Shown piece by piece: positions 2,686-54,320 of a stretch of 64,000 nucleotides of DNA (positions are counted from its first letter, which is position 1; each line of letters starts with the position of its first letter). Below the pieces are notes generated by a model, which saw only the letters and a list, made by a program, of their open reading frames with translations, was not told the origin of the DNA and ran no database searches. The stretch comes from Escherichia phage vB_EcoM_ESCO9, in sequence record OM386654.1; one strand, written 5' to 3'. The position numbers were made by a program, and so were the translations under genes.

Positions 2686-5265
2686 ATGGGAGCTTTTACT
2701 TTCGACATTGAAAGTAACAACTTGCTTAATGACGAAAGTGTAGATTACTTGGCAAGTCCATATCGTTTAAAAGATAGTTTTGCAATGCACTGTATTGTGT
2801 GCGAAAGTCATGATACTGGAGAGATTATTGCTTTCCATGATGGTGATAAATATCTTTTCGATGGTCGTCCGTATATTGAGACTGACGGAAAGTATGAATA
2901 CCGACTGGAGGAATATGAGCATTTAGAATATACCCATTTCCCTCTTAAAGATTTTCCTGATTTTGTAAATGGAACAGGTAAATTTAAAGGTAATTCAAAC
3001 TATAAAATTACCAAAGTAGTTGGACATAACATCATTAACTTTGACTTACTGGCAATTAAATTATTTTTTAAACTCAACTACAGTATTAAGTACAATACTT
3101 GGGGTAATAGTAACATTGAAATTTGTGATACTATGATCTTAAGTAAGACACTAAACCCTGATCGCTTCGGTGGTCATAGTCTGGCAGAGTTATCTAAGAA
3201 AGCTGGAGGGGATGTTAAAATTGATTTTAGAAAAAACATCCCTGAAACTGAAAGATTTAAAACATTTGCAGCAGATATGCTGTATTACTGTATTTACGAT
3301 AACAAAGCTAACACCGCAGTGTTCCGTTATTTGATGGAAGAGTGGGGTGATTATAATAAGTGGTCTGAACCATTTAACTTAGAACAACGTGTAGCTGATA
3401 TTATTACACGTCAAGAGCACCGTGGCTTTGCTTTCAATATGAAGCAAGCAGAAGATAATATTCGTGATCTGGATGCTCGAATGGAAGCATGTCGTTTAGA
3501 GGCAGAACCTGTGCTACCTCCTAAACCTGCTACTAAAGGTTATTTGAAATCATTCATTCCACCTAAACTACAGTTTAAAAAGAATGGTGAACCTTCAAGT
3601 AACATGATAAAGTTTGCAGAGAAACATTCTGGTGAACTTGTACAAAAAGAAGATGGTTGGTGGTTATTTGCATTAGGTAAAGAGTTTAAACTGCCTATTC
3701 CAGCAGAAGAACCTATTTGTGATCCTACAGTACCTGCTACTTTAGACGACACTACACATATTAAAAATTGGTTAGTTGGTTTAGGTTGGAGTCCATCTGA
3801 ATATAAAGATAAAGATATCACTCTTAAATCTGGCACTAAGATTAAGAAAGATGAAGCACAAATGGAGAAAGCTATTCGTGACTATGTTGATCAAACATTA
3901 GCATCTAACTTCTGCCAGGATAGATGTGATCATCTGGAGTGCACACCAGAAACTTTGGAATGGAAACTAAGAGATCGTATTGCTAAAGCTAAAGGTCGTG
4001 GTGTTAAGGTGCTTACTAACCCTTCCTTTACAAAAGGGCAAGAGAAGGATATTTGTCCTAACTTGGAAGCACTAGGTGAAAAGTTTCCTTATGCTACGCA
4101 GATTGTGCAGTATCTTACGTATAAACATCGTAGAAACTCTATTCTAGGCGGTGGTGCTGATTGGGAAGAGGATGAAGAGGATTACGATAAAGGTTATCTG
4201 GCGGCAGTAAGGGCTGATGGTCGTATACCGACTCCTGCTGCAACGTGTGATGCAGCTACGTCTCGTATGAAACATAGGTTAGTAGCAAATATCCCACGTG
4301 TAACATCTCTGTACGGATATGAAATGCGTAACTTATTTGGTGTAGAAGTTCCAAAATACTTCCAAATTGGTTATGACTTTGATTCTCTTGAGGCAAAAAT
4401 AGAATCACACTACTGTTGGCGGTACGAGCAGGAACCACATGAATATTGTAATGCTCTATTATTGGAAAAACCTAATGATGTTCATACAATGATGGCTCGA
4501 CGTATTTCTGACACTATTGGTCGTAAGTTTGAACGAAGCCCTGCTAAATCTGTTAAGTATGGTATTACTTATGGTGCTCAAGCTGCAAAAGTAGCAAAAA
4601 CTATAGGTAGTGATATGTATACAGGACAGCTTGTATACGATGCTTTCTGGGAAGCTGCAAAACCTCTTGCGCTTCTTAAAGAACGTCTGCATGATTTTTG
4701 GGTTAAAACAGGTAAGAAATACATTCTTGGTATTGATGGTAGGAAAGTACCTACACGATCTGCACACGCAATACTTAACTCTCTGTTCCAGAGTGGTGGT
4801 GTTATTTGTGCAAAAAGAGCAATGGTTATCTACGACGATCTTATCGAAGAAGAAGGATTAGCTGTTGACTTTTTTGTTGATGACTGGAAAAATAAGTCAT
4901 TCGTTCAACAAATGATTGCATATCACGATGAAGCACAGCTTGAAGTAACTCGTGATCTGGTGCATTTTAAATGGTTCTCTAAAGAATCTTTAGGTTGGAC
5001 TCAAGTTGATGATCCAGAAGAACAAAAGAAAATTGATAAAGAATGTTTGGATAAGGTTAATGCCTGGAAAGAAGAGGAAGAGAAACGTACTGGCAAGATT
5101 TGGGCTAACGTACATGAATCTCCGAAAGGTGGTTGGTTTACAGCCTACAGTCGTGCTGGAGAATTAGCATCTATCGCTGTTAATAAAGCTGGTGAGTATT
5201 ACAATCTTAATGTACCTCTCACTGCTGGTTACGATGTTGGTAGTTCATGGTCAACTTGTCACTGA
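2686..5265 (+). CDS. DNA polymerase, family A (Pol I-like) with 3'-5' exonuclease domain
   Basis: 859 aa; exo motif VGHNIINFDL; motif B-like KSVKYGITYGAQ; motif C AYHDEAQLEV; RBS AAGGAGGGAG. Confidence 0.9.
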   Translation: MGAFTFDIESNNLLNDESVDYLASPYRLKDSFAMHCIVCESHDTGEIIAFHDGDKYLFDGRPYIETDGKYEYRLEEYEHLEYTHFPLKDFPDFVNGTGKFKGNSNYKITKVVGHNIINFDLLAIKLFFKLNYSIKYNTWGNSNIEICDTMILSKTLNPDRFGGHSLAELSKKAGGDVKIDFRKNIPETERFKTFAADMLYYCIYDNKANTAVFRYLMEEWGDYNKWSEPFNLEQRVADIITRQEHRGFAFNMKQAEDNIRDLDARMEACRLEAEPVLPPKPATKGYLKSFIPPKLQFKKNGEPSSNMIKFAEKHSGELVQKEDGWWLFALGKEFKLPIPAEEPICDPTVPATLDDTTHIKNWLVGLGWSPSEYKDKDITLKSGTKIKKDEAQMEKAIRDYVDQTLASNFCQDRCDHLECTPETLEWKLRDRIAKAKGRGVKVLTNPSFTKGQEKDICPNLEALGEKFPYATQIVQYLTYKHRRNSILGGGADWEEDEEDYDKGYLAAVRADGRIPTPAATCDAATSRMKHRLVANIPRVTSLYGYEMRNLFGVEVPKYFQIGYDFDSLEAKIESHYCWRYEQEPHEYCNALLLEKPNDVHTMMARRISDTIGRKFERSPAKSVKYGITYGAQAAKVAKTIGSDMYTGQLVYDAFWEAAKPLALLKERLHDFWVKTGKKYILGIDGRKVPTRSAHAILNSLFQSGGVICAKRAMVIYDDLIEEEGLAVDFFVDDWKNKSFVQQMIAYHDEAQLEVTRDLVHFKWFSKESLGWTQVDDPEEQKKIDKECLDKVNAWKEEEEKRTGKIWANVHESPKGGWFTAYSRAGELASIAVNKAGEYYNLNVPLTAGYDVGSSWSTCH

Positions 5266-5292: not shown

Positions 5293-5889
5293 ATGCTTAC
5301 CGTATATGGTGAAGGTATTAATGATTTGGAAGGCGAGAGTACGCTACCTGGTAGTAAGAAACTAACGCCGCATTATATGAAATGGATGGCTATGTTGGGG
5401 AGGTGTTACTCCCCTTGTCAACAAGAACGTGATCCTTGTTATAATGGGGTGACGGTTTGTGAAGAATGGAAACTGTTCTCCAATTTCTACTCTTGGTTGC
5501 AAACTTGGGATAACTGGGAAAACTTAGAACTTGATAAAGATATTATAGGAGGGAGAGTTTACTCTCCCGATACCTGTCTTTTAGTAACAGGAGATCTTAA
5601 CAAGTTCTTAGCTTATAGAGTAAGTAAAAGATCTCATGGGACTATGGTAGGATGTAGTTACGAAAAAGATCGTAAAAAGTATAAAGCCCATATTCAACGT
5701 GATGGACGTGTTATAACACTGGGACGTTTTAATACTGAAATTGAAGCGCATCTTTGTTGGTTGAAGGCTAAGGCAGAACAGCTTACAAAATTCTTTGAAA
5801 CTGAAGATGAAAGAGTTGTTCCACATCTTAAAGCACTATATAATGAAATGCTTGAGCATGTAGAACAACACAAAGAGTGGACACGATAG
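5293..5889 (+). CDS. AP2-domain DNA-binding protein, possible homing-endonuclease-like gene
   Basis: C-terminal YKAHIQRDGRVITLGRFNTEIEAHLCW resembles the AP2 DNA-binding domain found in phage homing endonucleases; no catalytic motif identified by eye. Confidence 0.4.
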   Translation: MLTVYGEGINDLEGESTLPGSKKLTPHYMKWMAMLGRCYSPCQQERDPCYNGVTVCEEWKLFSNFYSWLQTWDNWENLELDKDIIGGRVYSPDTCLLVTGDLNKFLAYRVSKRSHGTMVGCSYEKDRKKYKAHIQRDGRVITLGRFNTEIEAHLCWLKAKAEQLTKFFETEDERVVPHLKALYNEMLEHVEQHKEWTR

Positions 5890-19484: not shown

Positions 19485-19729
19485 TAGTTATCCTCCTTAT
19501 CAGGGGCAGGTGATCTGCCCCAACGTAAATCTATTAAATTCTTCATTAGTCTGGATGGTGTGATCATAAAAACAAAAGCCCAGCCCATCCATTCAGGAAT
19601 TTCTTTATCAATTCCCAAATAAATAAACATACTGGACATAACAATCATACCAATAGCATTCCAAACTTTAGTAGAACTGACTTTATTATCAGGATATGTA
19701 CAGAACATACCTATTAAAAATTTTCTCAT
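19484..19729 (-). CDS. small membrane protein (81 aa)
   Basis: Two hydrophobic segments; ATG overlaps the stop of the upstream frame (ATGA). Confidence 0.5.
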   Translation of the reverse strand: MRKFLIGMFCTYPDNKVSSTKVWNAIGMIVMSSMFIYLGIDKEIPEWMGWAFVFMITPSRLMKNLIDLRWGRSPAPDKEDN

Positions 19730-19730
19730 G

Positions 19731-20238
19731 GTGCGTTCTCATTACTTTTTAAATCACGATATACAGCTAATTCCCCAAGGTCTACAGAACCCGCTGAATG
19801 CACAAGTACAGCAGCACTAAGACTAATGGCAGTAGTACCTGGGGCAATATCAGCAGGTAGGGAAAGCGGGGTTTCTGTTACCAACTTGCATCTATATAAA
19901 ACGTTGGAGATGTAGTTGTGGACCCTTCAATCGATATTTGTCCTGTTGAAGCATTAATGGTGGCCATTGCCATGCCAAATGAAACGCCATCAGCAGTGAA
20001 CGGTACAGGGACATTTTTGGTTACTTTTGGTCTGCACCACCTTGGCAGCGTTGGAATTATCATAACTTGGTATTTTTGTAATCGACTGTAGAGTAAGGTC
20101 AGTGGCTAAAACCACTCCAGTGTCAGTAAGAAAGTTGGAAACTGTGCTTTTAACAGTCTTATCAGGTTGGTCTAAAACCAGGTAATCTGAACCATTAACT
20201 TTTGATGTTTCGGGTAAATTAGTAATTGTAGTTGACAT
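19731..20238 (-). pseudogene. tail-fibre-N-terminus-like gene split across two reading frames (two compensating frameshifts)
   Basis: N-terminal 82-aa frame (20238-19990) resembles the N-terminus of 25291..25764; continues in a second frame (20063-19878, NVPV motif shared with the paralog); returns to the first frame for the last ~50 codons, ending in TGA overlapping the next ATG. Shift points lie at A5 and T4 runs. Confidence 0.4.
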
Positions 20239-47889: not shown

Positions 47890-47979
47890 TGGAGGAAGAT
47901 AATGGAGTCGAACCATCACCGTATCACTACAATGGGCCAGGGTTCAAACCTGGTTGCGCACCGCTGCGCCCTACCTTCC
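47890..47979 (-). tRNA. tRNA-Ser (anticodon TGA), long variable arm
   Basis: 90 nt; anticodon arm CCAGG-UUUGAAC-CCUGG; T-arm GAUGG-UUCGACU-CCAUU; acceptor GGAAGGU/AUCUUCC with one G.U; CCA encoded. Confidence 0.65.
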
Positions 47980-47989
47980 CGTTATCATA

Positions 47990-48024
47990 CTTTAAATCTA
48001 ACATAAAACTATCTTGCTTGTCAA
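47990..48024 (-). promoter_or_regulatory. sigma70-like promoter for a tRNA transcription unit (-35 TTGACA, 17 nt, -10 TTAGAT)
   Basis: Minus-strand TTGACA at 48019-48024; -10 at 47996-48001; tRNA-Ser 5' end about 17 nt downstream. Confidence 0.4.
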
Positions 48025-48042
48025 GTAGTTTTTAAAACTTTT

Positions 48043-48124
48043 TGGCCGGGGTGACAGGATTCGAACCTGCATACTCCAATTACTCGGTTAACGCCTGATT
48101 AGAAGTCAGGTGAGATACACCCCG
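48043..48124 (-). tRNA. atypical tRNA-like (anticodon arm consistent with Arg-TCT; no recognisable D-arm)
   Basis: Acceptor CGGGGUG/CACCCCG, T-arm GCAGG-UUCGAAU-CCUGU, CCA, hairpin CCUGA-CUUCUAA-UCAGG; only 7 nt between acceptor and that hairpin, 23 nt after it. Confidence 0.4.
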
Positions 48125-48197
48125 TTTTTATAATGACTATAACAAAAAACTAAGTAAATGTCAAGATATTTTTTACTAAAATTACTATTTAAATTGA

Positions 48198-48303
48198 AGC
48201 CTAGTTATGGAATCGAACCATATTTCGTATTTAGTTAGACAAAGCGGTCTAACATATTTTTCAGGCTTTGATGGCCTCGGAATTACCAAATACCCTACTA
48301 GGC
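48198..48303 (-). tRNA. atypical 106-nt tRNA-like element; candidate anticodon loop CAUCAAA (UCA) in my fold
   Basis: Perfect 7-bp acceptor GCCUAGU/ACUAGGC; T-arm UAUGG-UUCGAUU-CCAUA; D-region GGUAUU-UGGU-AAUUCC; hairpin AGGC-CAUCAAA-GCCU; extra perfect 7-bp hairpin GUUAGAC-CGCUUU-GUCUAAC; no CCA encoded. Confidence 0.4.
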
Positions 48304-48305
48304 GT

Positions 48306-48391
48306 TGGTGCAAGTGGAGGGATTCGAACCCTCAATCATTTAAGCGTTGCGTTTTAAGCACAATGTGTATCACCAATTCCACCACACTTGC
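48306..48391 (-). tRNA. tRNA-Leu (anticodon TAA), long variable arm
   Basis: 86 nt; D-stem GUG/CAC; anticodon arm UUGUG-CUUAAAA-CGCAA; T-arm GAGGG-UUCGAAU-CCCUC; CCA encoded. Confidence 0.7.
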
Positions 48392-48422
48392 GTATAGGAG
48401 ATGCATAGCACCTCCTTTTAAA

Positions 48423-48498
48423 TGGTGGTTCCCCAGGGTTACAATCCCTGCCCTCGACACTTATGAGGTGTGCGCTCTCGTCAGTGAGCTATGGAACC
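48423..48498 (-). tRNA. tRNA-Met (anticodon CAT), second copy, non-canonical T-loop
   Basis: Acceptor GGUUCCA/GGGAACC; D-arm GCUC/GAGC; anticodon loop CUCAUAA; T-arm CAGGG-AUUGUAA-CCCUG; CCA encoded. Confidence 0.55.
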
Positions 48499-48505
48499 TT
48501 GAATA

Positions 48506-48772
48506 TTAAGCATACTGGGTCATTTCACCAGCTTCGCGTTTCTCCAGAAGAACTGCAATCAAAGCAATAGCTGCTTCTTCTTCGTGAGGAAGCCCCATTT
48601 CATCCAGAAGAGCAAGGAAGTCAATTACCAAACTTTCTGTTTTAAGGCTAACGCTACCATTTTCGTTTTCAGTAAGAACTGATTCAGGATCAAAAATAAA
48701 GATTGCTCCACCTTTATTATCAATCAATACGTGCTTCTCAATCAATTCTTTGCCATAAGTCTTTTCTGTCAT
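48506..48772 (-). CDS. hypothetical protein (88 aa)
   Basis: ORF track; promoter-like element upstream. Confidence 0.5.
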   Translation of the reverse strand: MTEKTYGKELIEKHVLIDNKGGAIFIFDPESVLTENENGSVSLKTESLVIDFLALLDEMGLPHEEEAAIALIAVLLEKREAGEMTQYA

Positions 48773-48795
48773 AGTTTTCTCCTTTTGTTTAACTT

Positions 48796-48831
48796 GTGCT
48801 TATCTTAGCAAATAACTAGCTATGTTGTCAA
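48796..48831 (-). promoter_or_regulatory. sigma70-like promoter (-35 TTGACA, 18 nt, -10 TAAGAT)
   Basis: Minus-strand TTGACA at 48826-48831 and TAAGAT at 48802-48807. Confidence 0.4.
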
Positions 48832-48951
48832 CTAGTTTTTACAATATTTTTTCTTGATCTGTAACCCAGTGTATAACCGCATACAAAAGATACAATAGCA
48901 ATAAAAACAGATAAGCCAAAAATAATTTCTGTAGACATACTGTTTCCTTAA

Positions 48952-49173
48952 TTATGTGAAATCTAATTCCTCCTCTGGTGCTGTGTAATTTAGAAGAAGA
49001 TCAGTTACACTTTGATGTTGATAAACCCTTTCGGGACTGTCGTCGAATGCCAAACTTGTACAAATCGAGCATAGATCCGACTCTTGAATATTACCATTCC
49101 TGTCTCTACGGGAGTGATTAGTCAAGTGTCTGTTACAGGCTCGGCAACGAAAATAAAAATTATGTTGTTTCAT
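48952..49173 (-). CDS. small zinc-ribbon-like protein (73 aa)
   Basis: Cys pairs CRAC ... CSIC. Confidence 0.45.
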   Translation of the reverse strand: MKQHNFYFRCRACNRHLTNHSRRDRNGNIQESDLCSICTSLAFDDSPERVYQHQSVTDLLLNYTAPEEELDFT

Positions 49174-49244
49174 AAATCCTTCGTGAAGCCCATCCAGGGC
49201 AGTTGCAGGCTCTCCTTACCTTAATCTTATCACGAAGTTTTTAT

Positions 49245-50978
49245 TTAGTCAACCTGGATGGTTCCCATAGTACGAAGAACCTCTACATCAACACGGTTAC
49301 GGATATCTGTAAATGTTTCATCACGTCCTTCTACTTGTGGTGTAATAACCGTACCATCCCTGAAGATAACTTTTAACTCATTGTCTTCATCTTGGATATC
49401 TTTAAAAGAAAGATTATCCACAAGAGAAAGTTTACCATTTGTATCCTTAACAACCTTAATAAAACCTTTTGCAGAGCGTTTACCAGGATCAGTTTTAGGC
49501 TCCTTACTTACCAAAATTTCGTGTTCACCGATGATACTACCTGTTGCTTTAACAGCAAAACCAAAAGTATCTCGTGTATTGAACTGATAAGTATAACTAC
49601 CAACACCAAATACAATATTGGAAGCTGCAAAACCTTTCTTCTTCAGTCGGCGTAAGATCTCGTGTTCTCGTTCAACAGTAATAGAATCACCATAAATCAT
49701 ACCGATGTGCTGATCAAGAACCTTGTAGCCTTTTCGGTTGATAGTACCACCAAACACTTCCCAAAGGATTTGAATAGAACCTACTGCTTCACAATAAGGA
49801 ATCTCATAAGTTTCATCAATACAATCAGCAACACTGCAATCCTGAAGAACATTGTAATACTTATTAACATCAGCCAAATGAACTACTTCAGTGGCTGTAG
49901 CAATACCATTATTTAAAAGGTCTTCATAGTTATCAAAAGATTCAACATTGTATCCTGCAACAACTTTAACCGGATCTCCTGAATCTGGACGAATAACAAG
50001 ACGACCATTTCGTGACATAATGGAATCTTTCAACTCTACCAGAATGCGAGTCAAGACAGCCCAGTAGTCATAAGAATCTGCTACATATGAACAAAAACCT
50101 TCTGGAACAATTTCTTCAATATAGCGGCGAAGAAACTCTTTCTCTGCTACATAACGAAGCCCATCAACATCATCTTTAAGATGTGGGAAATGTTTCTTCA
50201 GACCTTCAACAATAGCTCCAATGTTAGTCGTTGCTACTGAATGTTCTGTTGCCGGAATAGAACCTGCAACAAACTGATCATAATCAATACCATAATAATC
50301 ATGCACAGTCTCAATAGCCAGAATGTTATCTGTTCCTGTGAAAGATGCCAAATGAGCGATACCACTCTTATAACCATCTTCGATATTACTTAAACCACGT
50401 AGGCTAAAATCATGACACTGGAAGTTAACGTGATCAATATTATCACACGTTGCCATCGCATATGCCATAGCGATACGCTTATACTGAAAAGCTGCTGTGG
50501 CATTAGTCATTGTCTTCCAAGTTTCATCTGACAATAGTGTTTCCACATAGTTAGTTAACCAAAAGAATTTTTCTAAAGTATTATGCACAGTAAACACAGG
50601 AACACCAATAGGACACAAAACACCTTCTGGCAGAGATCGAACTTCCAGCGGAAGATAACCTAAATCGTGCAATTCTCCCCAACATTCAGCAGAAGGAGCA
50701 GAAGCACCTAATGCATTCTTAGACATACGATAAAATTTATTTACTGCTGCACTACGAGACATTTTAAAGAAGCTGTCCCACATAGTTACAAGGGCATCGG
50801 TGACTGCTCGACGAATACCTAAAACAATTACACCACGTGCTTCACGATCTGCATAGTGTGCAAAGTTTTTATCATTACGAGGAGTTAAATTAGAGAAAAT
50901 GAGTTTTGTATTTTGGTTGTACATCTGCTTGTGACCAGGTTTATACCAATCAGTAGCAAAAGGTGCAAAAATATTCAT
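49245..50978 (-). CDS. nicotinamide phosphoribosyltransferase family protein (NAMPT/NadV-like; Namat-type activity not excluded)
   Basis: 577 aa; blocks recalled from NAMPT: FATDWYKPGHKQMY, LPEGVLCPIGVPVFTVHNT...FWLTNYVETLL, HDFSLRGLS, RPDSGDP. Confidence 0.85.
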   Translation of the reverse strand: MNIFAPFATDWYKPGHKQMYNQNTKLIFSNLTPRNDKNFAHYADREARGVIVLGIRRAVTDALVTMWDSFFKMSRSAAVNKFYRMSKNALGASAPSAECWGELHDLGYLPLEVRSLPEGVLCPIGVPVFTVHNTLEKFFWLTNYVETLLSDETWKTMTNATAAFQYKRIAMAYAMATCDNIDHVNFQCHDFSLRGLSNIEDGYKSGIAHLASFTGTDNILAIETVHDYYGIDYDQFVAGSIPATEHSVATTNIGAIVEGLKKHFPHLKDDVDGLRYVAEKEFLRRYIEEIVPEGFCSYVADSYDYWAVLTRILVELKDSIMSRNGRLVIRPDSGDPVKVVAGYNVESFDNYEDLLNNGIATATEVVHLADVNKYYNVLQDCSVADCIDETYEIPYCEAVGSIQILWEVFGGTINRKGYKVLDQHIGMIYGDSITVEREHEILRRLKKKGFAASNIVFGVGSYTYQFNTRDTFGFAVKATGSIIGEHEILVSKEPKTDPGKRSAKGFIKVVKDTNGKLSLVDNLSFKDIQDEDNELKVIFRDGTVITPQVEGRDETFTDIRNRVDVEVLRTMGTIQVD

Positions 50979-51004
50979 AGTTATGTCTCCTTGTTTGTTA
51001 GTGT

Positions 51005-51039
51005 GGGAGTATCTTACTAAGCATACTCCCTATTGTCAA
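51005..51039 (-). promoter_or_regulatory. sigma70-like promoter (-35 TTGACA, 17 nt, -10 TAAGAT) overlapped by an inverted repeat
   Basis: Minus-strand TTGACA at 51034-51039 and TAAGAT at 51011-51016; inverted repeat GGGAGTAT...ATACTCCC (51005-51030) spans the -10. Confidence 0.4.
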
Positions 51040-51049
51040 CACTTATTAT

Positions 51050-51943
51050 TTAAAAATTCCACACGTATGGAGATACAATTTGTTGTTGCAAATCTGACTG
51101 ATTCTTAACAAGAACACCGGAATCTTCTTGGATGTTATCTTCCCACACATTAAGAGAATGAATGCAGTCAAAGTGCTCACTTAACTCTTTAAGACCTTTA
51201 GAAAAGATACCGTGTGTAACATATAACTCAATCTTACCTGCGTTACGAGCACGTAGCACTTTAGCCAATTCAATAAAAGTTCTACCGCCGTCACAGATAT
51301 CATCTACGATCATCAGGTTACGCTTATTGAAATCCTGTACAGAAATGTCTGTACGAACAATAGCACCTGTTGCAGTATCTCTAACCTTCTCTGCACAGAA
51401 CACATCTAAAGACATTTTCTTAGATAATTTAAATATTTTCTTAAGAGCACCACCATCAGGACTAACAAGAGCAAAATTCTCCATACGTAACTTCCACTTT
51501 AAAGTTTCGTAAGCAATCTCTTCTTGAGGTATTACACAGAGTCTGTCAAACACTGCTGGAGTAACATCACTATGTGGATCAGCAACGATAACACGTGAGA
51601 AATTTAATGAATTAATTATAGAAGCAAAGGCTTTAACTCCGAATGCTTCCCCAGGCTCACACACTCTGTCTTGTCGTGCATACGGCACATACAACATGAG
51701 TAAATCAACACAATATGGTTTATGATATAACATATTGTCCAATGCATTCTTAGTCATAACCAAAGTCATCAAGTCTTTAGCAGATCTTACTTCTAAAGAG
51801 AGTAAGATTCTGTCTGTAGCATGATTGAAACCTGATAGATTCGTGTCTAGTTGAACATGTTGTTCTCCACCAGAGAATGTAAAGACTTTAACGTCTACAT
51901 CAGTAACATAACAGTCAACACCATGTAGAATACTAACTTTCAT
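51050..51943 (-). CDS. ribose-phosphate pyrophosphokinase (PRPP synthetase)-like protein
   Basis: 297 aa; Prs-like motifs YARQDR, VSPDGG and IVDDICDGGRT; RBS AAGGAG. Confidence 0.85.
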   Translation of the reverse strand: MKVSILHGVDCYVTDVDVKVFTFSGGEQHVQLDTNLSGFNHATDRILLSLEVRSAKDLMTLVMTKNALDNMLYHKPYCVDLLMLYVPYARQDRVCEPGEAFGVKAFASIINSLNFSRVIVADPHSDVTPAVFDRLCVIPQEEIAYETLKWKLRMENFALVSPDGGALKKIFKLSKKMSLDVFCAEKVRDTATGAIVRTDISVQDFNKRNLMIVDDICDGGRTFIELAKVLRARNAGKIELYVTHGIFSKGLKELSEHFDCIHSLNVWEDNIQEDSGVLVKNQSDLQQQIVSPYVWNF

Positions 51944-51977
51944 TGTTTATCTCCTTAGTTGAGTTAGGACTTTATGT

Positions 51978-52011
51978 TCTCTACTCTACATACAGATAGA
52001 TCTAAAGTCAA
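51978..52011 (-). promoter_or_regulatory. sigma70-like promoter (-35 TTGACT, 17 nt, -10 TAGAGT)
   Basis: Minus-strand TTGACT at 52006-52011 and TAGAGT at 51983-51988, inside the AT-rich divergent region. Confidence 0.4.
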
Positions 52012-52352
52012 TAGATATTTATTATTTAATTAATAATAAAATTAATAAAGAATCTATTGTTAGTATAGAGTATGTATGTTAGTATTATAGACATAACATA
52101 GTGCTATATGTAGACTACTCAGTTGTCTGTTAGATCATGTATCACAAGATTAGATAACACCCCCTCGCTGCGCTCGGCGTTTTTCGGGGGTTAGGGTAGC
52201 ATACTTTTTTGCGTTTGTCAACACCTTTTTGGATTATTTTTAAGTACAACCTAAACCTCCTAAAAACGATTGTAACGAGTTTTACTGTGAGGTAAGGTGA
52301 TTGCATATCTTAAAGGCCATTAGCTCGTTACAGAGCCGTATAGGAGGGAATA

Positions 52353-52721
52353 ATGAGGGTCACACGCTACGTTAGAAGTGAAACAATAGATGGAAGCATA
52401 ATGTATGCTTTCTACGATGATAAAACTTTTTGTTCTGCGTTCTATGAAGAAGACTTGTCTACGGAATGGCAACAAATCATCTTCTTACTTGACATTTTGA
52501 AAAGAAGAGATAACTTTGAAGGTATTGAGTGGACAGTGGGAAGCAAAGTTATCATTCCAGGTTTAAGCAAACATGAGTTGCTTGACTTAGATTGTAAACT
52601 TTGTAATTATCAATTCTCAAAACGTTTACCATTAGAAAGACAGTTAGGAGTTGAGATTCATGTTGACTTGGGCGATGGAGTATCCTATACTCTCAACAAT
52701 CATAGTGCTGACGTTAATTAG
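52353..52721 (+). CDS. hypothetical early protein (122 aa)
   Basis: ORF track; RBS AGGAGGG; first gene of the plus-strand block. Confidence 0.5.
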   Translation: MRVTRYVRSETIDGSIMYAFYDDKTFCSAFYEEDLSTEWQQIIFLLDILKRRDNFEGIEWTVGSKVIIPGLSKHELLDLDCKLCNYQFSKRLPLERQLGVEIHVDLGDGVSYTLNNHSADVN

Positions 52722-52787
52722 TGGGATCACAAAGTGCGTCACAAGCATTTGCGATTGTTTAACACATTTTAAACAAAGGAAAAATAA

Positions 52788-52985
52788 ATGAATCAAACTA
52801 TGCAAACAATCTATAGAGTAATTCTTGGTGAGTTCCATGTTGTTAAGTCAACATTGAATTATGAAGAAGCTAAAGAGAATTTCTTGCTTTGGGTTGAAGC
52901 ATTCTCTGAAGTTGAAAAGGTGAGTTACAATTGTGTAACTTTAACTGCTGATCACGTACCTGTATTGGAGTTTATTAAGAAATGA
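52788..52985 (+). CDS. hypothetical protein (65 aa)
   Basis: ORF track; RBS AAGGAAA. Confidence 0.45.
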   Translation: MNQTMQTIYRVILGEFHVVKSTLNYEEAKENFLLWVEAFSEVEKVSYNCVTLTADHVPVLEFIKK

Positions 52986-53221
52986 AAAAAGAAATTTTAA
53001 CTGATGTAACATATTCTTGTATTAGCAAAGGCGGTTTATATCGTGTAGTTGGCTTTCCTAAACCAGCGGGTGTATCTAAAGTATTTGATCCTGTTGTGAT
53101 CTACGAAGATGTAAGGACTGGTCAACAGTATTGGCGATTCCAGCAAGATTTCTTACACCGCATGGAGGTTGTTGATGGCGAAAACACCGAAGAAGCGATC
53201 CGTAACAAAGCACGCATCTAA
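52982..53221 (+). CDS. hypothetical protein (79 aa)
   Basis: ORF track; ATGA overlap with upstream gene. Confidence 0.45.
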   Translation: MKKEILTDVTYSCISKGGLYRVVGFPKPAGVSKVFDPVVIYEDVRTGQQYWRFQQDFLHRMEVVDGENTEEAIRNKARI

Positions 53222-53785: not shown

Positions 53786-53979
53786 TGTTTCTTATTTATT
53801 CAGGTAAAGCCAAATACATGCAAGGTGTAAAGCGTGTAGAAGTAGCAGATACTGTAACTATAGGAAAATCCTTTATTCTTTATTTGTTTTATATCAATGG
53901 AGAAAGATTTGCTGTTTCTAAGAAGTTGGTAGATAATGGTAAAACTTGGAAAGAAGAGAAACAGGAAGGGGGTAGATAG
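53785..53979 (+). CDS. hypothetical protein (64 aa)
   Basis: ORF track; TAATG overlap. Confidence 0.4.
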   Translation: MFLIYSGKAKYMQGVKRVEVADTVTIGKSFILYLFYINGERFAVSKKLVDNGKTWKEEKQEGGR

Positions 53980-54320
53980 TGGCTAAAATTCTTTGGTTAG
54001 ACGATTTAAGAGATCCTAAAGATTATGGTTATGAGGATGCCATTTGGTTAAAATCTTTTGAGGATTGGTTATCTTTTGTTTCAGATGAAGATAATTTCAA
54101 TAATATCTCAGAGATACACTTCGATAATGATCTTGGAGAAGATCAAGAAGGATATCATGCGTTCTTAGACGTAGAATGTATGTTGTACGCGGGTGAATGG
54201 GATGCTCTTAAAACTATCTATGTTCATACATCAAATCCTTCTGCTGCTGGTAAATATATGTTAGCTAAGGAAAATTTTATTTCATCCTATGGTATTGAAA
54301 TTAAACGTGTTAACTATTAA
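53979..54320 (+). CDS. hypothetical acidic protein (113 aa)
   Basis: GTG start overlapping upstream stop. Confidence 0.45.
   Translation: MAKILWLDDLRDPKDYGYEDAIWLKSFEDWLSFVSDEDNFNNISEIHFDNDLGEDQEGYHAFLDVECMLYAGEWDALKTIYVHTSNPSAAGKYMLAKENFISSYGIEIKRVNY

What the first reader, a model, noticed from the sequence alone, without database searches (positions are those of the whole stretch)
49245..51943. NAMPT-like plus PRPP-synthetase-like gene pair: NAD+ salvage or NAD+ reconstitution (NARP1-type) anti-defence module
Adjacent co-oriented genes encode a nicotinamide phosphoribosyltransferase-family enzyme and a ribose-phosphate pyrophosphokinase-like enzyme, each with its own promoter-like element. 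This two-gene arrangement matches, as I recall it, the phage pathway that rebuilds NAD+ from ADP-ribose and nicotinamide to overcome NAD+-depleting defence systems; it could equally be classical NadV/Prs salvage. By eye I cannot tell whether the Prs-like enzyme acts on ribose-5-phosphate or ADP-ribose. No NMN adenylyltransferase is visible in the window.
Basis: partly seen in the sequence, partly recalled or inferred. Interest (0 to 1): 0.65.

Follow-up and report, generated by a model that had tools for sequence, protein, structure and literature searches.

The report
Known phage NAD+ rebuilding operon (NARP1)
This is the two-gene NARP1 operon of a phi92-like E. coli phage, which rebuilds NAD+ from the fragments left by NAD+-destroying bacterial defences; it is already catalogued for this phage group, so it is an ordinary, known feature.

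Summary
Two co-oriented minus-strand genes lie exactly where stated: a 297-aa PRPP-synthetase-like protein (51943..51050) and a 577-aa NAMPT-family protein (50978..49245).

The window is a phi92-like Justusliebigvirus. The two proteins are 100% and 99% identical to bas60_0254/0255 of BASEL phage Bas60. Osterman et al., who discovered NARP1, already list these Bas60 and phi92 proteins in their tables as Adps homologues with an adjacent "Adps-associated" Namat.

My independent tests agree:
- The Prs-like protein nests among verified Adps enzymes (ICP1, Bas63, SpβL1, FADO). It keeps the catalytic Lys and the acceptor-groove residues. Its HMM scores look like Adps and not like E. coli Prs.
- The NAMPT-like protein carries the published Namat adenine-clamp motif (GSYTYQFNTRD), which true Nampts lack.
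- Its best structural match is the Namat crystal structure.
- No Nmnat, NadR, Macro or RyR gene accompanies the pair.

The best reading is therefore NARP1: ADPR + ATP gives ADPR-PP, then ADPR-PP + nicotinamide gives NAD+. Classical Prs/NadV salvage is unlikely.

The activity has not been assayed for this lineage. Minor unexplained features are two Namat insertions, a variant clamp loop, and a conserved internal promoter and hairpin. Novelty: already known. Interest: low.

The parts
51050..51943 (-). adps: ADP-ribose pyrophosphate (ADPR-PP) synthetase, PRPS-like, 297 aa. First gene of the NARP1 pair.
   Evidence: ORF. It is 100% identical to Bas60 bas60_0254. It differs at residue 10 (D vs G) from phi92 FR775895_00103, which Osterman Table S1 ('Adps homologs') lists with 'Namat within 10 genes: Yes'. 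It is 40.5% identical to the structurally and biochemically characterised ICP1 Adps (157 bits), against 28% (73 bits) to E. coli Prs. Conserved functional residues: F23, R90, H124, D163, K186, D214, D215, I216, C217, D218, F223. HMM score pattern is Adps-like. It nests among verified Adps in an NJ tree. AF2 model pLDDT 92.9 with a PRPS fold.
49245..50978 (-). namat: nicotinamide ADP-ribose transferase, NAMPT-family, long form of 577 aa. Second gene of the NARP1 pair.
   Evidence: ORF. It is 99% identical to Bas60 bas60_0255. The phi92 and Bas60 orthologues are tagged 'Adps-associated' in Osterman Table S2. Best PDB sequence and fold match is SpbetaL1 Namat 9W5X/9W5W (398 bits; TM 0.93 on target). 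Catalytic residues are conserved: D10, Y12, F191, R194, D217, R330, D332. The SCH motif G460-S-Y462-T-Y-Q-F466-N-T-R-D470 fits the published Namat signature. AF2 model pLDDT 91.9.
51983..52011 (-). Candidate sigma-70-like promoter upstream of adps (TTGACT-17-TAGAGT).
   Evidence: Pattern scan, 9 of 12 matches. It lies about 40 nt upstream of the adps ATG in a 400-nt divergent intergenic region. This is a pattern only and is not shown to function.
51011..51039 (-). Candidate internal sigma-70-like promoter in the 71-nt adps-namat spacer (TTGACA-17-TAAGAT).
   Evidence: 10 of 12 matches. The same motif family precedes downstream small genes and the tRNA cluster, at 49252, 48831, 46722, 41572 and 29381. 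A relative with 50% protein identity has TTGACT-17-TATTAT in the equivalent spacer.
51005..51030 (-). Intergenic hairpin GGGAGTAT-N10-ATACTCCC overlapping the -10 element. No U-tract follows it.
   Evidence: RNA fold -15.3 kcal/mol, z = -2.8 against shuffles. A GGGAGGTAATTACCTCCC hairpin is present in the same spacer of relative L014. It was not called as a terminator. Function unknown.

Best explanation
The two genes are the NARP1 (NAD+ reconstitution pathway 1) operon of a phi92-like Justusliebigvirus.

Proposed mechanism:
- An NAD+-depleting defence system (SIR2-HerA/Nezha, DSR1/2, type I Thoeris, SEFIR, Kongming and similar) cleaves NAD+ into ADP-ribose and nicotinamide during infection.
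- The second enzyme, Namat (a NAMPT-fold dimer), displaces that pyrophosphate with nicotinamide and regenerates NAD+ directly. No NMN intermediate and no host or phage Nmnat are needed.

Shown here: gene presence and order; near-identity to catalogued NARP1 genes; clade membership; conservation of catalytic and specificity residues; folds; absence of an Nmnat.

Inferred from homologues (Bas63 genetics and metabolomics; SpbetaL1, ICP1, DyoEdafos and P. foliorum biochemistry): the two reactions and the anti-defence phenotype.
For: 1. Identity. The window is 98.5-99.4% identical in DNA to phi92, alia, Eryne and PaulScherrer/Bas60 across the locus. The proteins are 100% and 99% identical to bas60_0254/0255.

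2. Prior cataloguing. Osterman et al. Table S1 ('Adps homologs') lists phi92 FR775895_00103 and Bas60 MZ501100_00239 with 'Namat within 10 genes: Yes'. Table S2 lists FR775895_00104 and MZ501100_00240 as 'Adps-associated'. The paper says four BASEL phages carry the operon.

3. Adps side.
- Identity to enzymes shown to make ADPR-PP: 40.5% to ICP1, 35% to Bas63, 35% to SpbetaL1. Identity to E. coli Prs is 28%.
- The NJ tree places it inside the bracket of ICP1, Bas63, SpbetaL1 and FADO Adps, with E. coli Prs outside.
- Curated Prs equivalog/subfamily models are missed by a wide margin (PRK01259 100 bits against a cutoff of 297), as for verified Adps (74-101 bits); E. coli Prs scores 533. phrog_619 gives 306 bits, against 248-333 for verified Adps and 193 for E. 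coli Prs.
- The ICP1 functional residues F18, R87, H121, D161, K185, D212, D213, I214, C215, D216 and F221 are all conserved, and the PP loop DDICDGGRTF is identical to that of Bas63.

4. Namat side.
- Best PDB match is SpbetaL1 Namat by sequence (398 bits) and by fold (TM 0.93).
- The SCH signature GS-X-phi-X-phi-X-phi-TRD, with aromatics at positions 3 and 7, is met (Y462, F466) and is conserved in 60 of 60 clade members apart from a few with Met at position 7.
- Nampts have GGGLLQ... (phage NARP2-type) or GAQTYQRNTRD (H. ducreyi NadV) at this site.

5. Context.
- The adps-then-namat order with a ~70-nt spacer is kept in a relative at 50% identity.
- No Nmnat, NadD or NadR is found in the window or in the whole phi92 genome: annotation, tblastn hits only at E > 1, and gp158 'nucleotidyltransferase' has no CTP_transf_like domain. 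This fits the published NARP1/NARP2 exclusivity.
Against: - No enzyme or deletion data exist for any Justusliebigvirus NARP1. The experiments used Bas63 (35-40% identical), SpbetaL1, FADO, ICP1, DyoEdafos and P. foliorum.
- The raw distance from the window Adps to the SpbetaL1 Adps (0.85) is no smaller than to E. coli Prs (0.81). The tree also has only one Prs outgroup.
- ICP1 adenine-contact F92 is Cys95 here, and the lid residue F223 is Glu225.
- The 'missing C-terminal alpha11-alpha12' signature of Adps is not clearly met. The AF2 model has one confident C-terminal helix at 282-295.
- The Namat clamp loop (SCL) reads K37-N38-F39, not K-W as in Bas63 or R as in SpbetaL1, so the stacking residue is uncertain.
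- Namat enzymes keep PRPP-to-NMN activity in vitro, so some classical salvage flux cannot be excluded.
- Profile libraries (PHROG, NCBIfam) do not separate Namat from Nampt.
Confidence: 0.9

Rival explanations
1. Classical pyridine salvage. The Prs-like enzyme makes PRPP from ribose-5-phosphate. The NAMPT-like enzyme (NadV) makes NMN from PRPP and nicotinamide. Host NadR, or PncC plus NadD/NadE, finishes NAD+ synthesis. The phage would simply be boosting NAD+ supply.
For: This is the historical annotation in all GenBank records and in Pfam/NCBIfam naming. TIGR01251 is just passed (118.8 against a cutoff of 113). Namat homologues can make NMN from PRPP in vitro. H. ducreyi NadV, a true Nampt, is fairly close in sequence (339 bits). 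The Prs-like model keeps a PRPS-type fold with a C-terminal helix.
Against: All Prs equivalog models fail by about 200-480 bits, exactly as for verified Adps. [quoted passage not shown] The window Namat has the adenine-clamp aromatics that HdNadV and phage Nampts lack. 97% of Adps-clade genes sit next to a Namat whereas bacterial prs genes rarely do. The phage has no Nmnat, whereas 94% of phage Nampt carriers do.
Confidence: 0.05
2. A dual-use or lineage-diverged module. The enzymes perform NARP1 chemistry but also have a second role specific to the long-form clade. Examples are meaningful PRPP/NMN production early in infection from the separately promoted namat, or use of additional ADPR-derived substrates through the extra Namat subdomain.
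For: There is a candidate internal promoter plus a conserved hairpin before namat. Two confident insertions are absent from the crystallised Namat: a helical hairpin at about 246-290 and an alpha/beta subdomain at about 343-399, the latter varying from 49 to 95 aa across the clade. The SCL variant is K-N-F, with F39 at least 90% conserved and H41 invariant. Adps keeps a C-terminal helix.
Against: Bas63 Namat has the same insertions, and larger ones (593 aa), and behaves as plain NARP1 in vivo. Nothing in the sequence points to a specific extra activity. The promoter evidence is pattern-level only.
Confidence: 0.05

Closest known systems
NARP1 of Escherichia phage PaulScherrer (Bas60) and phi92 (gp107/gp108), as listed in Osterman et al. 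2024 Tables S1/S2
   Same: Same genus. The proteins are 100% and 99% identical, with the same gene order, spacer and flanking tRNA cluster.
   Different: Essentially nothing. The window Adps differs from the phi92 Adps at residue 10 (D vs G). Neither phage's operon has been tested experimentally.
NARP1 of Escherichia phage JohannRWettstein (Bas63, genes 79-80). [quoted passage not shown]
   Same: Same two-gene order and the same E. coli host. Long-form Namat with the same two insertions. Identical Adps PP loop (DDICDGGRTF). SCH motif present.
   Different: Only 35% (Adps) and 40% (Namat) identity, and a different phage family (Felixounavirus). The SCL is K-W-F in Bas63 and K-N-F here. The spacer is 45 nt in Bas63 and 71 nt here, with a promoter-like element and hairpin in the window.
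SpbetaL1 Adps/Namat (biochemistry; Namat crystal structures 9W5X/9W5W) and ICP1 Adps (crystal and cryo-EM structures)
   Same: Same folds. Same catalytic residues (Adps K186 corresponds to K185 in ICP1 and K162 in SpbetaL1; Namat R330 corresponds to R306). SCH clamp motif present. TM 0.93 to 9W5X.
   Different: SpbetaL1 Namat is the short form (491 aa) and uses Arg40 as its SCL stacking residue. ICP1 Adps contacts F92 and F223 are Cys and Glu here. ICP1 Adps ends without the C-terminal helix predicted here.
NARP2 (KVP40-type Nampt + Nmnat) and bacterial NadV (H. ducreyi, 9KE8)
   Same: Same NAMPT fold and the same nicotinamide/ribose-phosphate catalytic core.
   Different: These enzymes lack the clamp aromatics (GGGLLQ.. 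or GAQTYQRNTRD), are paired with an Nmnat rather than an Adps, and prefer PRPP. No Nmnat is present here.
NARP1-AP (with Macro-domain Adpp) and RyDEP-containing NARP1 loci
   Same: Same Adps/Namat core.
   Different: No Macro or RyR-domain gene lies in or beside this operon. phi92 has a Macro protein (gp185), but it is about 65 kb away in a PRTase_3/HAD cluster. By analogy this phage's NARP1 should be blind to aRES-type NAD+ phosphorolysis.

Membership tests
NARP1 (Adps + Namat) | A PRPS-like protein belonging to the Adps clade rather than to housekeeping Prs | tested here: met
   It nests among ICP1, Bas63, SpbetaL1 and FADO Adps, with E. coli Prs as outgroup. HMM score pattern matches verified Adps and not E. 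coli Prs. The phi92 and Bas60 orthologues are in Osterman Table S1 'Adps homologs'. Caveats: only one Prs outgroup, and the raw distance to SpbetaL1 Adps is no smaller than to E. coli Prs.
NARP1 (Adps + Namat) | A Namat homologue immediately adjacent and co-oriented (97% of Adps-clade genes) | tested here: met
   The genes are 71 nt apart on the same strand, with adps first. The arrangement is conserved in a relative at 50% identity.
NARP1 (Adps + Namat) | [quoted passage not shown] | tested here: met
   G460 S Y462 T Y Q F466 N T R D470. The motif is conserved across 60 clade members. It is absent from phage Nampts (GGGLLQ..) and from HdNadV (GAQTYQRNTRD).
NARP1 (Adps + Namat) | Namat selectivity-clamp loop (beta1-beta2) supplying an adenine-stacking residue: Arg at position 3, or Lys/Tyr followed by a stacking residue | tested here: inconclusive
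   The window has K37-N38-F39-A-H41, Bas63 has K42-W43-F44 and SpbetaL1 has R40. Lys is present, but the next residue is Asn. F39 (at least 90% conserved) or H41 (invariant) may do the stacking. Testing this needs a dimer-plus-NAD+ model or a structure.
NARP1 (Adps + Namat) | Conserved Nampt-like catalytic core in Namat (SpbetaL1 D13, Y15, F189, R192, D215, R306, D308) | tested here: met
   D10, Y12, F191, R194, D217, R330 and D332 are all conserved and invariant across the clade.
NARP1 (Adps + Namat) | Adps catalytic Lys on the beta-hairpin, and acceptor-groove/PP-loop residues (ICP1 F18, R87, F92, H121, D161, K185, D212-D216, A218-S220, F221, F223) | tested here: met
   11 of the 16 checked positions are identical (F23, R90, H124, D163, K186, D214, D215, I216, C217, D218, F223). 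G220-R221-T222 replaces A-A-S, exactly as in Bas63. F92 becomes C95 and F223 becomes E225, and these two also vary in Bas63 and SpbetaL1. Most of these residues are shared with PRPS, so they support catalytic competence more than substrate specificity.
NARP1 (Adps + Namat) | Adps lacks the PRPS C-terminal alpha11-alpha12 filament/allosteric module | tested here: inconclusive
   The 36-aa tail does not align with the E. coli Prs C-terminus, and the ...SISAMF allosteric residues are absent. However, the AF2 model shows one confident helix at 282-295, and Foldseek alignments to PRPS span about 295 columns. No per-residue superposition was available.
NARP1 (Adps + Namat) | Enzymatic activities: ADPR + ATP gives ADPR-PP; ADPR-PP + nicotinamide gives NAD+, with preference for ADPR-PP over PRPP | not testable with these tools
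   Shown only for homologues: SpbetaL1, ICP1, DyoEdafos and P. foliorum in vitro, and Bas63 in vivo.
NARP1 (Adps + Namat) | Rescues the phage from NAD+-depleting defence systems independently of host NMN salvage | not testable with these tools
   Shown for Bas63, FADO, and knock-ins of the SpbetaL1 operon. I found no report for Bas60 or phi92.
Housekeeping class I PRPP synthetase (Prs) | Scores above the curated cut-offs of the NCBIfam Prs equivalog/subfamily models | tested here: not met
   PRK01259 99.6 against a cutoff of 297, PRK00934 98 against 296, and the others 50-78 against 322-536. Only the broad TIGR01251 model is just passed (118.8 against 113). E. coli Prs scores 533 on PRK01259 and 423 on TIGR01251.
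NARP2 / NadV-type Nampt | A Nampt accompanied by a phage Nmnat (94% of cases), without the adenine-clamp aromatics | tested here: not met
   No NadD- or NadR-like sequence in the window or the phi92 genome (tblastn hits only at E > 1; annotation; gp158 is not a CTP_transf_like protein). The clamp aromatics are present.
NARP1-AP / RyDEP-extended NARP1 | A Macro-domain ADPR-1''-P phosphatase (Adpp) or an RyR-domain glycosidase encoded within the operon | tested here: not met
   The flanking small ORFs have no Macro or RyR hits, and the spacer between the genes is only 71 nt.
NARP3 | A PnuC-like transporter plus a NadR-like bifunctional enzyme | tested here: not met
   No NadR homologue.

The most novel reading that the evidence does not exclude
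The long-form enterobacterial-phage NARP1 may be functionally diverged from the characterised short-form system. The differences are:
- Namat carries a helical hairpin of about 40 aa and an alpha/beta subdomain of 49-95 aa.
- The Namat clamp loop is K-N-F.
- Adps retains a C-terminal helix.
- A conserved internal promoter and hairpin precede namat.

Possible consequences are a broader donor range (meaningful PRPP use alongside ADPR-PP), regulation through the extra subdomain, or uncoupled expression of Namat from Adps.
Probability: 0.1. Interest if true: 0.4.

Novelty: already known. Interest (0 to 1): 0.12.

Why it matters
It matters little as a discovery. NARP1 was described in 2024, structures of both enzymes were published in 2026, and the phi92/Bas60 genes are already in the discoverers' tables.

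Its practical value is in annotation. GenBank records of this genus still call the genes 'ribose-phosphate pyrophosphokinase' and 'nicotinamide/nicotinate phosphoribosyltransferase', which misstates the chemistry.

For phage-therapy candidates of the phi92 group, the operon predicts resistance to SIR2, TIR, DSR and SEFIR-type NAD+ depletion. Because no Adpp phosphatase is linked to it, it also predicts sensitivity to aRES-type NAD+ phosphorolysis.

Tried and rejected
- PHROG and NCBIfam profiles cannot tell Namat from Nampt. Both hit phrog_448 and NF006629 with overlapping scores, so I used the published clamp motif instead.
- Overall similarity is weaker evidence than it first looked. H. ducreyi NadV scores 339 bits, against 398 for Namat.
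- Fold search of the Prs-like model returns only PRPS structures (TM 0.72-0.76). No Adps entry is in the PDB copy, so the fold does not discriminate.
- phi92 gp158 'nucleotidyltransferase' was considered as a hidden Nmnat. It was rejected because it has only a sub-threshold PolyA_pol-head hit, and that region does not match the window anyway.
- phi92 gp185 (Macro) was considered as an Adpp. It is about 65 kb away, sits in a PRTase_3/HAD/Ter-like cluster and lies outside the window, so it is not counted as part of the operon.
- P0096 (867 aa) was suspected to be an Adps-Namat fusion. It has no similarity to Adps, so the extra length is an internal insertion.
- An NAD+ riboswitch or other known RNA upstream was sought. 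There were no Rfam hits apart from a sub-threshold GA-cis match (E 0.37).
- The 'hypothetical tRNA' annotated inside the phi92 NAMPT-like gene is not supported. ARAGORN finds nothing between 48498 and 53000.
- The intergenic hairpin was considered as an intrinsic terminator. It has no U-tract and was not called by the scan.
Full report
**Observation**

The two ORFs exist exactly as reported, both on the minus strand. One is 51943..51050 (297 aa) and the other 50978..49245 (577 aa), with 71 nt between them. Each is preceded by a GGAG-type ribosome-binding site.

The longer protein is a NAPRTase/NAMPT-family enzyme: PF04095 at E 1e-37, phrog_448 at 627 bits, and NF006629 at 461 bits against a cutoff of 405. 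The shorter one has the PRPP-synthetase domains: phrog_619 at 306 bits and TIGR01251 at 118.8 bits against a cutoff of 113.

Promoter-like hexamers lie upstream of each gene. TTGACT-17-TAGAGT is at 52011..51983 and TTGACA-17-TAAGAT is at 51039..51011. The region as a whole has only slightly more such matches than shuffled sequence (20 against 13.6 +/- 3.7). The observation, including 'each with its own promoter-like element', is therefore confirmed as a description.

**What genome this is**

The locus is 98.5-99.4% identical to 55 phage records of the genus Justusliebigvirus, including phi92, alia, Eryne and PaulScherrer. The window aligns colinearly, in reverse, with phi92 36121..102334. The Prs-like protein is 100% identical to bas60_0254 of BASEL phage Bas60 (PaulScherrer), and the NAMPT-like protein is 99% identical to bas60_0255.

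**What is already published**

Osterman et al. (bioRxiv 10.1101/2024.02.11.579819) noticed this Prs + NAMPT operon in four BASEL phages. Their main results:
- Deleting it from Bas63 made the phage sensitive to SIR2-HerA.
- The rescue did not need host pncC or nadR.
- A new metabolite, ADPR-pyrophosphate, appeared in infected cells.
- With SpbetaL1 homologues, the 'Prs' (Adps) pyrophosphorylates ADP-ribose, and the 'NAMPT' (Namat) joins ADPR-PP to nicotinamide to give NAD+, preferring ADPR-PP over PRPP.

Their Table S1 ('Adps homologs') contains phi92 FR775895_00103 and Bas60 MZ501100_00239, marked 'Namat within 10 genes: Yes'. Their Table S2 marks FR775895_00104 and MZ501100_00240 as 'Adps-associated'. 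The gene pair in this window is thus already catalogued as NARP1.

I found no experiment on a phi92-like NARP1 itself. The function here rests on homology.

**Independent tests: the Prs-like protein**

- *Pairwise similarity.* It is 40.5% identical (157 bits) to ICP1 Adps, whose ADPR-PP synthesis and structures were published in 2026 (PMC13586617). It is 35% identical to Bas63 Adps and 35% to SpbetaL1 Adps over 176 residues. Identity to E. coli Prs is 28% (73 bits).
- *Curated models.* It behaves like the verified Adps enzymes and unlike a housekeeping Prs. PRK01259 gives 100 bits (verified Adps 74-101; E. coli Prs 533; cutoff 297). TIGR01251 gives 119 (Adps 98-139; E. coli Prs 423). phrog_619 gives 306 (Adps 248-333; E. 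coli Prs 193).
- *Tree.* In a neighbour-joining tree it sits inside the bracket formed by ICP1, Bas63, SpbetaL1 and FADO Adps, with E. coli Prs outside.
- *Residues.* The ICP1 residues F18, R87, H121, D161, catalytic K185, D212, D213, I214, C215, D216 and F221 are all conserved. The PP loop DDICDGGRTF is identical to that of Bas63.

Caveats:
- The tree has a single outgroup.
- The raw distance to SpbetaL1 Adps is no smaller than to E. coli Prs.
- ICP1 F92 and F223 are Cys and Glu here.
- The 'loss of alpha11-alpha12' signature is not clearly met. A confident AF2 model (pLDDT 92.9) shows one C-terminal helix at 282-295.
- The fold search returns only PRPS structures at TM about 0.73, and no Adps entry is in the PDB copy, so the fold is uninformative on specificity.

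**Independent tests: the NAMPT-like protein**

Its best solved relatives are the SpbetaL1 Namat crystal structures 9W5X/9W5W, at 398 bits by sequence and TM 0.93 on target for a pLDDT 91.9 model.

Overall similarity is not decisive, because the true Nampt of Haemophilus ducreyi (9KE8) scores 339 bits. The discriminating feature is the published 'selectivity clamp' (PMC12774641). [quoted passage not shown]

The window protein reads G460-S-Y-T-Y-Q-F-N-T-R-D470. All 60 long-form relatives sampled keep the motif, a few with Met at position 7. Phage NARP2-type Nampts read GGGLLQQSDRD or GGGLLQEVTRD, and HdNadV reads GAQTYQRNTRD, with Gln and Arg at the two stacking positions. All nicotinamide/ribose-phosphate catalytic residues are conserved.

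The second clamp element, the beta1-beta2 loop, is K37-N38-F39 here, K-W-F in Bas63 and Arg40 in SpbetaL1. Lys is as described for the Bas63 type, but the following residue is not aromatic. F39 (at least 90% conserved) or the invariant H41 may take that role. I mark this feature inconclusive.

**Context**

- The adps-then-namat order with a ~70-nt spacer is kept in a metagenomic relative at 50% identity.
- No NMN adenylyltransferase exists in the window or in the entire phi92 genome. None is annotated. tblastn with E. coli NadD and NadR gives only hits at E > 1. phi92 gp158 'nucleotidyltransferase' has no cytidylyltransferase-like domain. This fits the reported mutual exclusivity of NARP1 and NARP2 and also rules out NARP3, which is PnuC + NadR.
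- The operon is the bare two-gene core. It has no Macro-domain Adpp and no RyR-domain RyDEP. By analogy with published data it should therefore not counter aRES, which produces ADPR-1''-phosphate.

**Mechanism**

A defence NADase splits NAD+ into ADPR and nicotinamide. Adps uses ATP to put a pyrophosphate on the terminal ribose of ADPR. Namat then exchanges that pyrophosphate for nicotinamide and restores NAD+ in two steps at the cost of one ATP.

What this work shows is gene identity, clade membership, motif and residue conservation, folds, and the absence of alternative partners. The chemistry and the phenotype are inferred from homologues. Confidence is 0.9.

The classical Prs/NadV salvage reading gets about 0.05. 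A lineage-specific dual or diverged function also gets about 0.05.

**Residual oddities**

None changes the verdict.
- The Namat is a long form with two insertions relative to the crystallised enzyme: a helical hairpin at about 246-290 and a small alpha/beta subdomain at about 343-399. Both are confidently modelled. The second varies from 49 to 95 aa in the clade. Bas63 Namat (593 aa) shares both.
- The 71-nt spacer holds a good sigma-70-like match overlapped by a GGGAGTAT/ATACTCCC hairpin (-15.3 kcal/mol, z -2.8, no U-tract). A relative at 50% protein identity has an equivalent promoter-like element and a GGGAGG/CCTCCC hairpin in the same place. This hints at conserved internal regulation or RNA processing.
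- No known RNA family matches the upstream region.

**Verdict**

The feature is already known. Interest is low (0.12).

Noticed in passing
window 53979-54320 (+) and downstream to about 56500: A 113-aa protein with a cREC_REC 'cyclic-phosphate processing receiver' domain (PF20274, E 2e-14). By homology with Bas60/phi92 gp097-gp095 it is followed by a metallophosphoesterase, an RNA ligase and a polynucleotide kinase, which together form an RNA-repair cassette. With the tRNA cluster and NARP1 next door, this stretch looks like a counter-defence neighbourhood.
   Followed up: partly
window 45460-48498 (-): A cluster of 15 ARAGORN-called tRNA genes lies immediately downstream of NARP1 on the same strand. 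The last one, tRNA-Met at 48423-48498, was not recovered by the Rfam tRNA model at E <= 1. It corresponds to a 'hypothetical tRNA' in the phi92 record, so it may be degenerate or atypical.
   Followed up: partly
window 51005-51039 (-); L014 3915-3980: A promoter-like TTGACA-17-TAAGAT overlaps a GGGAGTAT-N10-ATACTCCC hairpin in the adps-namat spacer. A relative with 50% protein identity has TTGACT-17-TATTAT plus a GGGAGGTAATTACCTCCC hairpin at the same place. The same TTGAC(A/T)...TA(A/G)(A/G)(A/G)T motif precedes other minus-strand genes at 49252, 48831, 46722, 41572 and 29381.
   Followed up: partly
window 49245-50978 (-), residues about 246-290 and 343-399: Two insertions relative to the crystallised SpbetaL1 Namat are confidently modelled as a helical hairpin and a small alpha/beta subdomain. 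The second ranges from 49 to 95 aa among relatives and is larger in Bas63. Function unknown.
   Followed up: partly
window 48952-49173 (-) and 48506-48772 (-): Two small ORFs lie directly downstream of namat, each with its own TTGAC-type promoter-like element. The 73-aa one has two CxxC pairs and a sub-threshold RecR zinc-finger hit (E 0.004). The 88-aa one has no domain hit. It is unknown whether they relate to NARP1.
   Followed up: partly
phi92 loci L011 14526-16741 and L009 12318-13130 (outside the window): phi92 encodes a Macro-domain protein (gp185), a ComF-like PRTase_3 (gp186) and a HAD hydrolase (gp187) in a row near Ter-like stress genes. It also encodes a Sir2-family protein (gp038). 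These are all ADP-ribose/NAD-related activities whose relation to NARP1, if any, is untested.
   Followed up: partly
window 19724-20102, 4414 and 5295-5811, compared with phi92: This phage differs from phi92 at the tailspike module: the phi92 endosialidase gp143 region, about 2.7 kb, is replaced by about 380 bp. It lacks about 730 bp that phi92 has inside the DNA-polymerase region. It also has an unmatched ~500-bp stretch where phi92 has gp158. In the window, 2686-5265 reads as one 859-aa polymerase ORF.
   Followed up: no
protein P0096 (metagenomic homologue of Namat): An 867-aa Namat homologue carries an internal insertion of about 300 aa and has no similarity to Adps. This may be an intein or homing-endonuclease insertion in a NARP1 gene.
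   Followed up: no
phi92 record NC_023693.1 49736-49886 (equivalent to the inside of the window namat gene): The phi92 record annotates a 'hypothetical tRNA' inside the NAMPT-like CDS. ARAGORN finds no tRNA anywhere in window 48499-53000, so this is probably an annotation artefact.
   Followed up: yes
proteins P0181, P0182, P0207 and P0223 (homologues of the window Adps): Adps-like proteins at 43-46% identity are encoded on bacterial chromosomes, including Geminocystis spp. (contigs of 3.9-4.2 Mb) and Thorsellia anophelis. This is consistent with the reported rare bacterial NARP1 copies. I did not check whether they lie in prophages or next to a Namat.
   Followed up: no
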